Source: a virus
Lineage: Duplodnaviria > Heunggongvirae > Uroviricota > Caudoviricetes
IMG/VR virus record: IMGVR_UViG_2671180846_000008
DNA: 4,900 bases
Strand: one strand, 5' to 3'
The position numbers and the translations under genes were made by a program. The notes beneath the pieces were generated by a model. That model was given only the letters and a program-made list of their open reading frames with translations, did no database searches and had not been told where the DNA came from. Below, one piece after another: positions 4,093 through 4,675 of the stretch. Position 1 is the stretch's first letter. The number at the start of each line of letters is the position of its first letter.

Positions 4093-4142
4093 ACCGGTAA
4101 AGGTGTTCGCGATAAAGGTGAATATCGGCAATGAATAACAAT

Positions 4143-4198
4143 CCTCGCACTCGCGGGGATTTCTTTTATCTGAACTCGCTACGGCGGGTTTTGTTTTA
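4143..4198 (+). terminator. Two tandem terminator-like hairpins, each followed by a U-tract: CCTCGC-ACTC-GCGGGG + ATTTCTTTT (4143-4167) and CTCGC-TACG-GCGGG + TTTTGTTTT (4176-4198)
   Basis: Hand-folded inverted repeats with 5-6 bp GC-rich stems (one G-U wobble each) directly followed by T-rich runs. In the 118-nt intergenic region between the 80-aa ORF and the 114-aa ORF. Confidence 0.4.
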
Positions 4199-4210
4199 TG
4201 GAGACAAGAA

Positions 4211-4555
4211 ATGTCAGATTTGGCTATGAAGGTTTTGAAATGGCAATCGACTGGCGATGTTGGCATCAGTAGCGCAACTCTTGCCTCAATCGCATGTGGC
4301 CTGAAAAAGAATATCTATGGTCATCACTTCGGCGCTCCCCATGACGCAGCAGACTTCCGACGATGCGTTGCACTTGTTGAGAAGATTCCAGAAATCAGAG
4401 ATTCATTCGACAAGGTTGCAAAGCGCGTTCCGGCATTCAAAGGCATCCTCAACGAATGGGATTCCCTCGTCGCTCTGTTGAAGTCTGAAATGAAGATACA
4501 CGGAAACAAAGCACCAGAGACTTACAGAAGAATTAGCGAGCTACGCAAGGACTAA
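4211..4555 (+). CDS. Hypothetical protein, 114 aa, unknown function; candidate moron/accessory gene
   Basis: ORF MSDLAMKVLKWQSTGDVGISSATLASIACGLKKNIYGHHFGAPHDAADFRRCVALVEKIPEIRDSFDKVAKRVPAFKGILNEWDSLVALLKSEMKIHGNKAPETYRRISELRKD. GGAG at 4200-4203, 7 nt upstream of the ATG. Preceded by a 118-nt intergenic region and followed by hairpins. Not recognised as a lambda gene. Confidence 0.55.
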   Translation: MSDLAMKVLKWQSTGDVGISSATLASIACGLKKNIYGHHFGAPHDAADFRRCVALVEKIPEIRDSFDKVAKRVPAFKGILNEWDSLVALLKSEMKIHGNKAPETYRRISELRKD

Positions 4556-4560
4556 CCACA

Positions 4561-4579
4561 GCCTCACACTCAATGAGGC
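4561..4579 (+). terminator. Inverted repeat GCCTCA-(7-nt loop)-TGAGGC just after the 114-aa ORF stop; possible stem-loop or weak terminator
   Basis: Perfect 6-bp inverted repeat at 4561-4566 and 4574-4579, followed by CTGTTCATTTCT (moderately T-rich). Confidence 0.3.
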
Positions 4580-4613
4580 CTGTTCATTTCTCAAGATATC
4601 CAGACCTACCATT

Positions 4614-4636
4614 GCCGCATCAATGCGGCTTTTCTT
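4614..4636 (+). terminator. Intrinsic-terminator-like hairpin GCCGCA-TCAA-TGCGGC followed by TTTTCTT, about 25 nt upstream of xis
   Basis: Perfect 6-bp GC-rich inverted repeat (4614-4619 / 4624-4629) with a 4-nt loop, immediately followed by TTTTCTT at 4630-4636. Confidence 0.5.
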
Positions 4637-4675
4637 GCGTGTAATTGCGGAGACTTTGCGATGTACTTGACACTT
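4635..4675 (+). promoter_or_regulatory. Putative cII-dependent pI promoter: TTGC-N6-TTGC motif (4635-4648) spanning the -35 region, with the transcript predicted to start around the xis start codon
   Basis: TTGCGTGTAATTGC matches the TTGC-N6-TTGC recognition motif of lambda cII-activated promoters. It sits just upstream of and overlapping the xis start, as pI does in lambda. Exact -10 and start site not determined. Confidence 0.55.

What the first reader, a model, noticed from the sequence alone, without database searches (positions are those of the whole stretch)
4093..4640. 114-aa ORF flanked by terminator-like hairpins: moron-style unit or attenuator-controlled gene
The 114-aa ORF (4211-4555) is the only gene in the window separated from its upstream neighbour by a substantial intergenic region (118 nt); all other genes are stop/start coupled. 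That spacer contains two similar hairpin-plus-U-tract elements (4143-4167, 4176-4198), and two more hairpins follow the ORF (4561-4579, 4614-4636). The layout resembles a moron insertion (own signals plus terminator) or a leader-attenuated gene whose expression depends on N-type antitermination from pL. The protein has no obvious family signature; C28, H37, H38, H44 and C51 could form a small metal site, but this is speculative.
Basis: partly seen in the sequence, partly recalled or inferred. Interest (0 to 1): 0.65.

Follow-up and report, generated by a model that had tools for sequence, protein, structure and literature searches.

The report
Terminator-flanked ORF114 gene of lambdoid prophage
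This is an ordinary, already catalogued part of lambda-like prophages: a small early gene of unknown function (ORF114 of phage 434 and HK022) lying between two previously annotated transcription terminators (tL4 and t'I) just upstream of the excision and integration genes.

Summary
The ORF (4211-4555), the 118-nt spacer and all four hairpins are real. The region has 4 terminator-like sites against 0.6±0.9 in shuffles, and no promoter-like site.

The layout is already known. The window is the gam-bet-exo…xis-int arm of a lambdoid prophage. Hairpin 1 is the tL4 terminator annotated in phage 434 and HK022. Hairpins 1 and 2 are t3 and t4, predicted with ARNold in lambda by Bloch et al. 2014. Hairpin 4 is t'I of phage 434 and abuts the cII-dependent pI promoter. 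The gene is ORF114 of phage 434.

Compared with 434, HK022 and lambda, only orf55 is missing here, with the junction at TTTTATGGAGA. The same hairpin-2/Shine-Dalgarno joint precedes six different genes in other phages. The hairpins therefore mark a swappable cargo slot in the pL operon.

I found no promoter, leader peptide, alternative RNA fold, Rfam match or unusual composition. The most likely reading is a pL-transcribed gene that depends on antitermination. It is not a self-expressed moron and not an attenuator.

The proposed metal site fails: only C52 is conserved. The protein belongs to a large phage family with no Pfam entry, a confident all-helical model and no match to solved structures. 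Its function remains unknown.

The parts
3850..4092 (+). Upstream neighbour, an 80-aa DUF4222 protein; its stop codon defines the start of the 118-nt spacer
   Evidence: Pfam PF13973 E=7e-16. Annotated at the same position in the near-identical E. coli E2865 prophage.
4140..4171 (+). Hairpin 1 plus T tract: the intrinsic terminator tL4 (t3 of lambda in Bloch et al. 2014)
   Evidence: 9-bp stem, -13.1 kcal/mol, z -5.5. Found by the terminator scan. Aligns to the features annotated 'tL4' in M60848 (phage 434) and X51962 (HK022). ARNold prediction t3_lambda.
4172..4199 (+). Hairpin 2 plus T tract: a second, tandem terminator-like element (t4 of lambda). It is the most conserved part of the joint and runs straight into the Shine-Dalgarno sequence.
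   Evidence: 8-bp stem with C(UACG)G loop, -11.0 kcal/mol, z -4.9. ARNold prediction t4_lambda. Nearly invariant (one G/A difference in six sequences) in lambda, 434, HK022 and the IMG/VR variants aligned. The exact core precedes six different downstream genes in 120 viral contigs.
4200..4203 (+). Shine-Dalgarno sequence GGAG of ORF114
   Evidence: Read directly from the sequence, 7 nt before the ATG at 4211. The string GGAGACAAGAAATG is identical upstream of ORF114 in 79 of the 80 related loci, one locus carrying a single base change.
4211..4555 (+). ORF114 coding sequence (114 aa): a member of a large uncharacterised phage protein family with a predicted seven-helix fold
   Evidence: 98% identical to ORF114 of phage 434. 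phrog_1229, E=1e-51, unknown function. No Pfam, NCBIfam or PADLOC match. 2814 cluster representatives at E<=1e-3. AlphaFold2 pLDDT 93.
4561..4579 (+). Hairpin 3, immediately after the stop codon. It travels with ORF114 and has a weak T tract, so it is probably a 3' stabiliser or weak terminator.
   Evidence: -10.1 kcal/mol, z -3.75. Present in 77 of 80 ORF114 loci whatever follows, and removed by a small deletion in the other 3.
4614..4637 (+). Hairpin 4 plus T tract: the terminator t'I
   Evidence: Maps onto the 't'-I' terminator of M60848 and the terminator annotated in OL657226. 6-bp G+C-rich stem, -10.3 kcal/mol. Present in 60 of 80 ORF114 loci.
4636..4649 (+). cII-binding repeat TTGC-N6-TTGC, the -35 region of the int promoter pI. 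It overlaps the end of the t'I T tract.
   Evidence: 97.8% identical to lambda from 4630 onward. The same positions are annotated as the cII site and pI in phage 434 record OL657226.
4661..4879 (+). xis (excisionase), the downstream neighbour
   Evidence: Pfam PF07825 E=4e-41. Annotated in related records.
4857..4900 (+). Start of int (integrase), which runs off the window
   Evidence: Position matches the integrase annotated in the E2865 prophage and in phage 434.

Best explanation
The region is the last cargo slot of the leftward early (pL) operon of a lambdoid prophage, between the ea22-like genes and xis-int.

Proposed mechanism:
- Transcription enters from upstream and meets two tandem intrinsic terminators: H1, which is tL4, and its near-duplicate H2.
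- Only RNA polymerase made termination-resistant at nutL reads through them. That means N-modified polymerase or, in HK022-type phages, put-RNA-modified polymerase.
- ORF114 is then translated from its own Shine-Dalgarno sequence.
- The polymerase passes the cassette's 3' hairpin (H3) and terminator t'I (H4) and goes on into xis and int.
- Unmodified polymerase stops at tL4 or t'I. ORF114 should therefore be silent in the repressed prophage and be expressed as a delayed-early gene after induction or infection.
- t'I also shields the cII-activated pI promoter, which begins inside its T tract.

The conserved string of hairpin, T tract and Shine-Dalgarno sequence also serves as the joint at which alternative genes are exchanged by recombination. 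In this window orf55 is absent and ORF114 is joined directly to tL4.

ORF114 itself is a compact seven-helix protein of a large phage-specific family. It most likely binds a host factor or a small ligand. That step is inference only.

Shown here: the hairpins, their identity with annotated or predicted terminators, the mosaic joints, and the absence of promoter and attenuator features.
Inferred: termination and read-through in vivo, and what the protein does.
For: Context:
- gam, bet, exo, the ea22-like gene, DUF551, DUF4222, ORF114, xis and int all lie on the + strand.
- The window is collinear at 99.1-99.8% identity with an E. coli E2865 prophage.
- That prophage has a repressor, a promoter-like TTGACC…TAATTT, boxA GCTCTTTAACA, a boxB-like inverted repeat and an N-like ORF (Pfam N_peptide E=0.003, below the cut-off) upstream of the same operon.

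Terminators:
- 4 terminator-like sites against 0.6±0.9 expected, all on the + strand.
- Energies of -10 to -13 kcal/mol, with z from -2.4 to -5.5.
- H1 is annotated as tL4 in 434 and HK022, and H4 as t'I in 434.
- H1 and H2 are t3 and t4, predicted by both ARNold methods in lambda (PMC4195576 Table 4).

Structure kept while sequence changes:
- All 80 loci encoding ORF114 have a hairpin plus T tract directly before the Shine-Dalgarno sequence.
- Three different H1-position stems occur (AATCCTCGC, AACCCGC, CCGC), and 50 loci have a separate orf55-end hairpin instead.
- Downstream, 60 loci have t'I and 8 have a different hairpin plus T tract.

Cargo slot:
- The exact H2-SD core precedes orf55 (84 stretches), the ORF114 family (23), a 99-aa Cys-rich protein (7), an 81-aa protein (3), a 46-aa peptide (3) and a 57-aa protein (1).
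- Relative to lambda, ORF114 is an insertion between the T tract of the orf55-end hairpin and CTTGCGTG.

No independent control:
- 0 promoter-like sites, no Rfam family near threshold, H1 and H2 paired with probability >0.9 with no competing fold, and G+C equal to the flanks.

Protein:
- A real, conserved gene with 2814 cluster representatives and a model at pLDDT 93.
Against: - No transcript ends or read-through were measured here. I could not reach the primary papers behind the tL4 and t'I annotations (the literature search found nothing relevant). Whether termination was ever measured at these sites, rather than inferred from sequence, is therefore unknown to me.
- The window does not contain pL, nutL or N. 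These are inferred from a near-identical prophage.
- Nucleotide variation in H1 and H2 gives no two-sided compensatory change. There are only wobble-to-Watson-Crick changes (4187 G>A in 62 of 146 instances, 4156 G>A in 9), and 14 distinct substitutions break a pair, most of them rare. Conservation alone therefore does not prove selection for structure.
- 12 of 80 ORF114 loci have no second downstream terminator, so t'I is not an obligatory part of the unit.
- The simple consensus scan could miss a weak or activator-dependent promoter.
- The protein's function has no direct support.
Confidence: 0.75

Rival explanations
1. ORF114 is a true moron: an autonomous unit with its own promoter and terminator, expressed from the repressed prophage and acting for the lysogen, for example in exclusion or fitness.
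For: - It is extra DNA relative to lambda, inserted between sequences that are adjacent there.
- It carries its own 3' hairpins: H3 in 77 of 80 loci, and usually t'I.
- It is very common in E. coli prophages. 796 of 5426 complete genomes hold at least 80% of the region.
Against: - No sigma-70-like promoter on either strand of 4093-4660, and none on the + strand of the whole window.
- The 40 nt before the Shine-Dalgarno sequence are filled by a terminator stem and its T tract.
- G+C content is the same as the flanks.
- The gene lies in the early operon, not the late operon where classical morons were defined (my own knowledge).
Confidence: 0.08
2. The spacer is a regulated leader, an attenuator or riboswitch that senses a signal and switches between terminator and antiterminator folds.
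For: - There are two hairpin-plus-U-tract elements directly before the gene.
- A 32-aa ORF (4131-4229) overlaps them.
- Weak sub-threshold Rfam hits to leader families fall here.
Against: - The Rfam hits score 17-20 bits against gathering scores of 47-56, with E-values of 2-9.
- The ATG of the small ORF is absent in lambda, which keeps both hairpins.
- H1 and H2 are paired with probability 0.9-0.98 in every context folded. The only long-range alternative, the H1 tail pairing with the SD region, has probability <=0.06.
- The same spacer serves six unrelated downstream genes.
Confidence: 0.03
3. The hairpins are not significant terminators in vivo. They act mainly as 3' or 5' mRNA stabilisers or processing sites, or persist only as conserved boundary sequences that promote module exchange.
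For: - H3 has a poor T tract.
- The hairpin, T tract and Shine-Dalgarno string is shared by many different gene combinations and coincides with recombination junctions.
- No two-sided covariation is seen.
- Bloch et al. report ea8.5 and int transcripts across the exo-xis region during lytic growth.
Against: - H1, H2 and H4 have canonical intrinsic-terminator geometry: a G+C-rich stem of 6-9 bp, a 4-nt loop, and at least 5 T in 8 nt directly after the stem.
- Both ARNold methods call H1 and H2.
- Non-homologous hairpins with T tracts replace them at the same positions. A pure recombination linker would not need that.
- This rival is compatible with the best explanation and is not strictly exclusive of it.
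Confidence: 0.15
4. ORF114 is a small metal-binding protein that uses the Cys and His residues noted by the first reader.
For: - The E. coli protein has C29, H38, H39, H44 and C52.
- C52 is invariant across the family.
Against: - C29 is Leu in relatives at 58-76% identity. H38 and H39 are variable. H44 is replaced by Ser, Arg, Tyr, Leu or Trp.
- The invariant set is S20, P43, D45, D48, R51, C52 and W83, with no His.
Confidence: 0.03

Closest known systems
Phage 434 int-xis region, GenBank M60848: tL4 - ORF55 - ORF114 - t'I - xis - int. HK022 X51962 / AF069308 has the equivalent layout.
   Same: The protein is 98% identical. DNA from 4187 to 4900 is 97-98% identical. The same tL4 hairpin, H3, t'I, pI and xis occur in the same order.
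   Different: Here ORF55 is absent and ORF114 follows tL4/H2 directly. The junction lies in TTTTATGGAGA, a T tract plus Shine-Dalgarno sequence that occurs in similar form before both genes in 434.
Lambda exo-xis region terminators t3, t4 and t5 predicted by ARNold (Bloch et al. 2014, PMC4195576, Table 4)
   Same: t3 is H1 and t4 is H2, with 95% identity over window 4135-4213. t5 is the hairpin at the orf55 stop and holds the position of t'I next to pI.
   Different: Lambda has orf55 and no ORF114. Its t'I-position hairpin (GCCGCCTGATGGCGG) differs in sequence from H4 (GCCGCATCAATGCGGC).
Morons of lambdoid phages, as defined for HK97/HK022 by Hendrix and colleagues (from my own knowledge, not checked in a paper here)
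   Same: A single extra gene present in some phages and absent in others between otherwise adjacent sequences, ending in a factor-independent terminator.
   Different: No promoter of its own was detected, composition is not atypical, and the location is the early pL operon rather than the late operon.
N/nut (or HK022 put) processive antitermination of the pL operon (established lambda biology, from my own knowledge)
   Same: The gene lies downstream of intrinsic terminators in the leftward operon. boxA, a boxB-like hairpin and an N-like ORF are present in a prophage 99.1-99.8% identical to the window over its whole length.
   Different: This is not a difference in kind. The nut site and N are outside the window, and read-through was not measured.
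PHROG family phrog_1229 (unknown function)
   Same: Full-length match, E=1e-51.
   Different: The family has no annotation and no Pfam or NCBIfam counterpart.

Membership tests
Intrinsic (Rho-independent) terminator | G+C-rich stem-loop immediately followed by a U-rich tract on the transcribed strand | tested here: met
   H1, H2 and H4 have 6-9 bp stems, 4-nt loops and at least 5 T in 8 nt, with -10.3 to -13.1 kcal/mol. H3 meets the scan's threshold but has a weak tail.
Intrinsic (Rho-independent) terminator | RNA 3' ends generated at the U tract by unmodified RNA polymerase | not testable with these tools
   No transcript data are available. GenBank annotations and the ARNold prediction are the only support.
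Lambda-type tL4 / t'I terminators of the pL operon | Sequence homology and the same position relative to xis and pI as the annotated elements in 434, HK022 and lambda | tested here: met
   Alignments map H1 to the annotated tL4 and H4 to the annotated t'I. Lambda is 95% identical over 4135-4213.
Moron | Extra gene present or absent between sequences that are adjacent in related phages | tested here: met
   Lambda joins the orf55-end hairpin directly to pI. 434 and HK022 carry ORF114 between them.
Moron | Own promoter upstream of the gene | tested here: not met
   0 promoter-like sites in 4093-4660 on either strand. A consensus scan cannot exclude a weak or activated promoter.
Moron | Own terminator downstream | tested here: met
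   H3 is present in 77 of 80 loci, and t'I or another hairpin plus T tract in 68 of 80.
Moron | Expression from the repressed prophage | not testable with these tools
   Needs RNA-seq or reporter data from a lysogen.
Moron | Nucleotide composition different from its surroundings | tested here: not met
   G+C is 0.46-0.48 in the ORF and 0.42-0.52 in the flanks.
Transcription attenuator or riboswitch leader | Mutually exclusive terminator and antiterminator folds, a conserved leader peptide, or a ligand-binding aptamer | tested here: not met
   No competing fold, the leader ORF is not conserved in lambda, and no Rfam family comes near its gathering score.
N/nut-dependent delayed-early gene | Location downstream of pL-nutL-N in the same orientation with terminators in between | tested here: inconclusive
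   Orientation and terminators are met in the window. pL, boxA, boxB and an N-like ORF are seen only in the near-identical E2865 prophage. The N_peptide Pfam hit is below its cut-off.
Zinc or other metal-binding small protein | Conserved set of Cys and His ligands | tested here: not met
   Only C52 is conserved among the proposed ligands.

The most novel reading that the evidence does not exclude
The ORF114 family is a widespread phage protein family without a description. It has 2814 representatives of 50%-identity clusters, and it occurs in temperate lambdoid and P22-like phages, virulent Sashavirus and Vibrio phages, actinophages and even a giant virus. It has no Pfam model and no match to any solved structure. 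It has a strictly invariant signature: G-x-S-S at one helix start, P-x-D-x-x-D-x-x-R-C at another, and one Trp. Such a signature could mark a small enzyme or a ligand-sequestering or host-factor-binding module used early in infection, for instance in counter-defence or RNA repair. One homologue is fused to, or read through from, a CCA-adding enzyme, and another lies within about 5 kb of RtcB.
Probability: 0.15. Interest if true: 0.55.

Novelty: already known. Interest (0 to 1): 0.2.

Why it matters
For the scan, this item can be closed. The hairpins are the previously annotated or predicted tL4 and t'I terminators of the lambdoid pL operon, and the gene is ORF114 of phage 434 and HK022. The layout reflects ordinary modular exchange at terminator/Shine-Dalgarno joints.

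Two points have modest value. First, the tL4/H2-SD joint is a clear example of a conserved slot that accepts at least six alternative cargo genes just upstream of xis-int. Second, ORF114 belongs to a large phage protein family that has no annotation, a confident structure model and no structural relatives. It would be a reasonable target for a functional screen of early phage genes.

Tried and rejected
- Rfam at a permissive threshold gave only sub-threshold chance hits in the spacer.
- Leader-peptide idea: the 32-aa ORF at 4131-4229 is not conserved, and lambda lacks its ATG.
- Long-range pairing of the H1 tail (4159-4170) with the SD/AUG region (4201-4212) was found as an inverted repeat. 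Its pairing probability is <=0.06, so I rejected it as a translational switch.
- Covariation test on 146 instances (35 variants) of H1-H2 found no two-sided compensatory changes and is uninformative.
- The metal site was rejected on conservation.
- Function by homology:
  - Pfam, NCBIfam, PADLOC and PDB sequence searches were all negative.
  - BFVD returned only uncharacterised homologues.
  - hhalign against lambda Ea8.5 showed no relation.
  - The AFDB library was not available.
- Fusion clues:
  - The CCA-adding-enzyme fusion P0174 is a single 1.9-kb contig and looks like read-through of two adjacent genes.
  - Other N- and C-terminal extensions have no significant Pfam hit.
- Neighbourhoods of distant homologues show early-gene clusters near recombination genes, methylases and Lar-like genes, with no constant partner.
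- Literature:
  - No accessible paper mentions tL4 of lambda or ORF114.
  - PubMed 6305007, cited for the t'I-position terminator in OL657226, is not held.
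Full report
WHAT THE WINDOW IS

The ORFs and Pfam matches identify the window as the leftward early arm of a lambdoid prophage, all on the + strand:
- gam, 30-326
- bet, 332-1117
- exo, 1114-1791
- orf60a and orf63 homologues
- a TraR/DksA-type zinc-finger gene, 2605-2826
- an ea22-like gene, 2823-3428
- a DUF551 gene, 3425-3775
- a DUF4222 gene, 3850-4092
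- the 114-aa ORF, 4211-4555
- xis, 4661-4879 (Pfam Exc, E=4e-41)
- the start of int, from 4857

The window is collinear at 99.1-99.8% identity with a prophage of E. coli E2865 integrated next to yfaA/gyrA.

CHECK OF THE OBSERVATION

The ORF, the 118-nt spacer and the four hairpins are all present at or close to the stated coordinates.
- H1: stem 4140-4161, 9 bp, -13.1 kcal/mol, z -5.5, followed by TCTTTTATCT.
- H2: stem 4172-4191, 8 bp, C(UACG)G loop, -11.0 kcal/mol, z -4.9, followed by TGTTTTATGG.
- H3: stem 4561-4579, -10.1 kcal/mol, z -3.75, with a weak tail.
- H4: stem 4614-4629, -10.3 kcal/mol, z -2.4, followed by TTTTCTTGCG.

In 4093-4660 the pattern scan finds four terminator-like sites, all on the + strand, against 0.6±0.9 in shuffles. 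It finds no promoter-like site.

The two upstream hairpins are near-duplicates of each other, and H3 and H4 share TCAATG[A/C]GGC.

Two sub-claims fail.
- ORF114 is not the only gene with a spacer. A 98-nt gap at 2507-2604 holds another terminator-like hairpin, and a 74-nt gap lies at 3776-3849.
- The residue numbers are off by one for four of the five proposed ligands. The residues are C29, H38, H39, H44 and C52.

WHAT THE ELEMENTS ARE

A megablast against phage records hits phage 434, HK022, mEp043, mEp213 and many Stx-converting phages.

GenBank M60848 (phage 434) annotates, in this order: terminator t-L4, ORF55, ORF114, terminator t'-I, xis and int. HK022 X51962 annotates the same tL4. The recent phage 434 genome OL657226 annotates the t'I-position terminator and, overlapping it, the cII site and pI promoter.

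Alignment places the annotated tL4 exactly on H1 and the annotated t'I on H4.

In lambda the same H1-H2 sequence (95% identity over window 4135-4213) lies between ea8.5 and orf55. Bloch et al. 2014 predicted exactly these two hairpins as terminators t3 and t4 with both ARNold methods. They predicted the hairpin at the orf55 stop as t5 (PMC4195576, Table 4).

HOW THE LAYOUT AROSE

Lambda reads …orf55-GCCGCCTGATGGCGGTTTTTT-CTTGCGTGTAATTGCGG (pI)… .

Phages 434 and HK022 carry, between that T tract and CTTGCGTG, the block ATTGGAGACAAGAA-ATG…ORF114…TAA-H3-…-GCCGCATCAATGCGGCTTTT. ORF114 therefore behaves as a cassette with its own Shine-Dalgarno sequence, a 3' hairpin and a terminal terminator.

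In the present window orf55 is missing, and ORF114 is joined to H2 at TTTTATGGAGA. This T tract plus Shine-Dalgarno motif occurs, with one extra T in the second copy, before both orf55 and ORF114 in 434.

Among 80 IMG/VR loci encoding a 97-100% identical ORF114:
- All 80 have a hairpin plus T tract directly before the Shine-Dalgarno sequence. The orf55-end hairpin is there in 50, H1+H2 in 24, and another stem plus H2 in 6.
- 77 keep H3.
- 60 are followed by t'I. Of these, 41 have the lambda-type pI/xis and 19 have a different int module that also shows TTGC-N6-TTGC.
- 8 are followed by a different hairpin plus T tract.
- 12 are followed directly by another gene.

Among 120 viral contigs carrying the exact H2-SD core, the next gene is:
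- orf55 in 84
- an ORF114-family gene in 23
- a 99-aa Cys-rich protein in 7
- an 81-aa protein in 3
- a 46-aa hydrophobic peptide in 3
- a 57-aa acidic protein in 1

The hairpins therefore flank a swappable cargo position. At least 80% of the 4093-4660 query (tL4, ORF114 and t'I together) is present in 796 of 5426 complete E. coli genomes.

HOW IT MOST LIKELY WORKS

I found no promoter in the spacer. The 40 nt before the Shine-Dalgarno sequence are occupied by a terminator. G+C content is the same as in the flanks.

H1 and H2 form with probability >0.9 in every context folded, and nothing competes with them. The one long-range alternative, the H1 tail pairing with the SD/AUG region, has probability <=0.06. 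Rfam has nothing near threshold. The small spacer ORF is not conserved.

The near-identical E2865 prophage has, upstream of the same operon, a repressor gene, a promoter-like TTGACC…TAATTT, boxA GCTCTTTAACA, a boxB-like inverted repeat TCTCAACC…GTTGAGA and an N-like ORF.

Together with established lambda biology (my own knowledge), the best reading is as follows. ORF114 is a delayed-early gene reached only by antitermination-competent polymerase, which reads through tandem tL4 and later through t'I into xis-int. Unmodified transcription stops, so the gene should be silent in the lysogen. t'I also isolates the cII-dependent pI promoter, whose TTGC-N6-TTGC repeat (4636-4649) begins in its T tract.

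Termination and read-through are inferred, not shown. I could not reach the primary papers behind the annotations. Sequence variation gives no two-sided covariation. The better argument for structural selection is that non-homologous hairpins with T tracts replace one another at the same positions.

THE PROTEIN

ORF114 matches phrog_1229 (E=1e-51, unknown function) and nothing in Pfam, NCBIfam, PADLOC or PDB sequences.

A profile search finds 2814 representatives of 50%-identity clusters at E<=1e-3, of which 636 are at E<=1e-10.

Annotated phage genomes contain it in lambdoid and P22-like phages, in virulent Sashavirus and many Vibrio phages, and in actinophages. It is always labelled 'hypothetical'.

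In a 60-member alignment the invariant residues are S20, P43, D45, D48, R51, C52 and W83. W11, G18, S21, L55 and P60 are nearly invariant.

Isoelectric points range from 4.5 to 10.1. This argues against a conserved nucleic-acid-binding or DNA-mimic surface.

The proposed Cys/His metal site is not conserved.

Distant homologues lie in early small-gene clusters near RecT/exonuclease, methylase and Lar-like genes, with no constant partner.

One homologue is fused to a CCA-adding enzyme. It is a single short contig and looks like read-through of neighbouring genes.

The function is therefore unknown. My best guess is a host-factor-binding or ligand-binding early protein. That guess rests on inference only.

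COMPARISON WITH WHAT IS KNOWN, AND VERDICT

The unit is the ORF114 region of phage 434 and HK022 with orf55 missing. Its hairpins are tL4 (plus its twin) and t'I.

It works like any gene of the N-dependent pL operon. It shares two of the defining features of a moron, extra DNA and its own terminator. It fails on promoter and composition, and expression from the prophage could not be tested. It fails all tests for an attenuator.

Novelty: already known. Interest is low at 0.2.

The one open point is the uncharacterised, structurally unmatched ORF114 protein family. That is the most novel reading the evidence leaves open.

Noticed in passing
window 2065-2114: A run of 50 N lies inside the orf63-like gene and is flanked by the same 27-nt sequence (AGAAACAGACGAAGAATTTCATACGTT) on both sides. 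The E2865 prophage has a single copy (window 2064 maps to L005 7049, window 2115 to L005 7023). It is therefore a scaffolding artefact, not biology.
   Followed up: yes
window 1855-1877 and 2527-2545: Two further terminator-like hairpins lie on the + strand. They are identical in sequence to t1 and t2, predicted for lambda and phi24B by Bloch et al. 2014. t2 lies in a 98-nt gap before the TraR/DksA-type gene, so ORF114 is not the only gene in the window preceded by a spacer with a hairpin.
   Followed up: partly
window 3762-3845: An unannotated 27-aa hydrophobic ORF (MNWPEAFTAVGVAIAVAFILYSLFRWG) has GGGAG 8 nt upstream. It overlaps the stop of the DUF551 gene and fills most of the 74-nt gap before the DUF4222 gene. 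It is intact in 12 related loci, one of them with a single substitution. It may be a small membrane peptide.
   Followed up: partly
window 4095-4105 and 4110-4120: A direct repeat, CGGTAAAGGTG / CGATAAAGGTG, with 15 nt start-to-start spacing, lies just after the DUF4222 stop and upstream of H1. It also forms part of a third, A/U-rich hairpin in the folded spacer. Its meaning is unknown.
   Followed up: no
window 4561-4579 vs 4614-4629; 4140-4171 vs 4172-4199: The four hairpins form two pairs of look-alikes: H1 with H2, and H3 with H4 (TCAATGAGGC / TCAATGCGGC). The lambda orf55-end hairpin GCCGCCTGATGGCGG resembles H4, GCCGCATCAATGCGGC. This suggests that terminators were duplicated or copied during cassette insertion.
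   Followed up: partly
Stx2 phages 86, PA28 and Stx2a_F723 (one search hits H78-H80); phrog_8038: Many Stx2-converting phages keep only the first 56 codons of ORF114 (95% identical, annotated as a short hypothetical protein). This is a mosaic remnant that gene callers treat as a gene.
   Followed up: no
proteins P0067, P0174 and P0124; locus L087: Distant family members include a tandem two-domain protein (P0067), a C-terminal Cys-rich extension (P0124), and a CCA-adding-enzyme/HD fusion seen on a single 1.9-kb contig (P0174). One homologue lies about 3.4 kb downstream of an RtcB RNA-ligase gene. This is a weak hint of a link to RNA or tRNA repair.
   Followed up: partly
L005 2590-2710 (E. coli E2865 prophage, upstream of the window's equivalent): The near-identical prophage carries boxA GCTCTTTAACA followed by the inverted repeat TCTCAACC-TAACC-GTTGAGA, and a 101-aa ORF with a sub-threshold Pfam N_peptide match. 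From memory, the nut site resembles the phage 21 type rather than the lambda type; I did not verify this.
   Followed up: partly
L003 2252-3028 (phage 434, OL657226): In phage 434 two opposite-strand 'putative membrane protein' genes and an annotated cII-binding site lie just upstream of tL4. The present window has the DUF551 and DUF4222 genes there instead. This is another example of cargo exchange on the other side of tL4.
   Followed up: no
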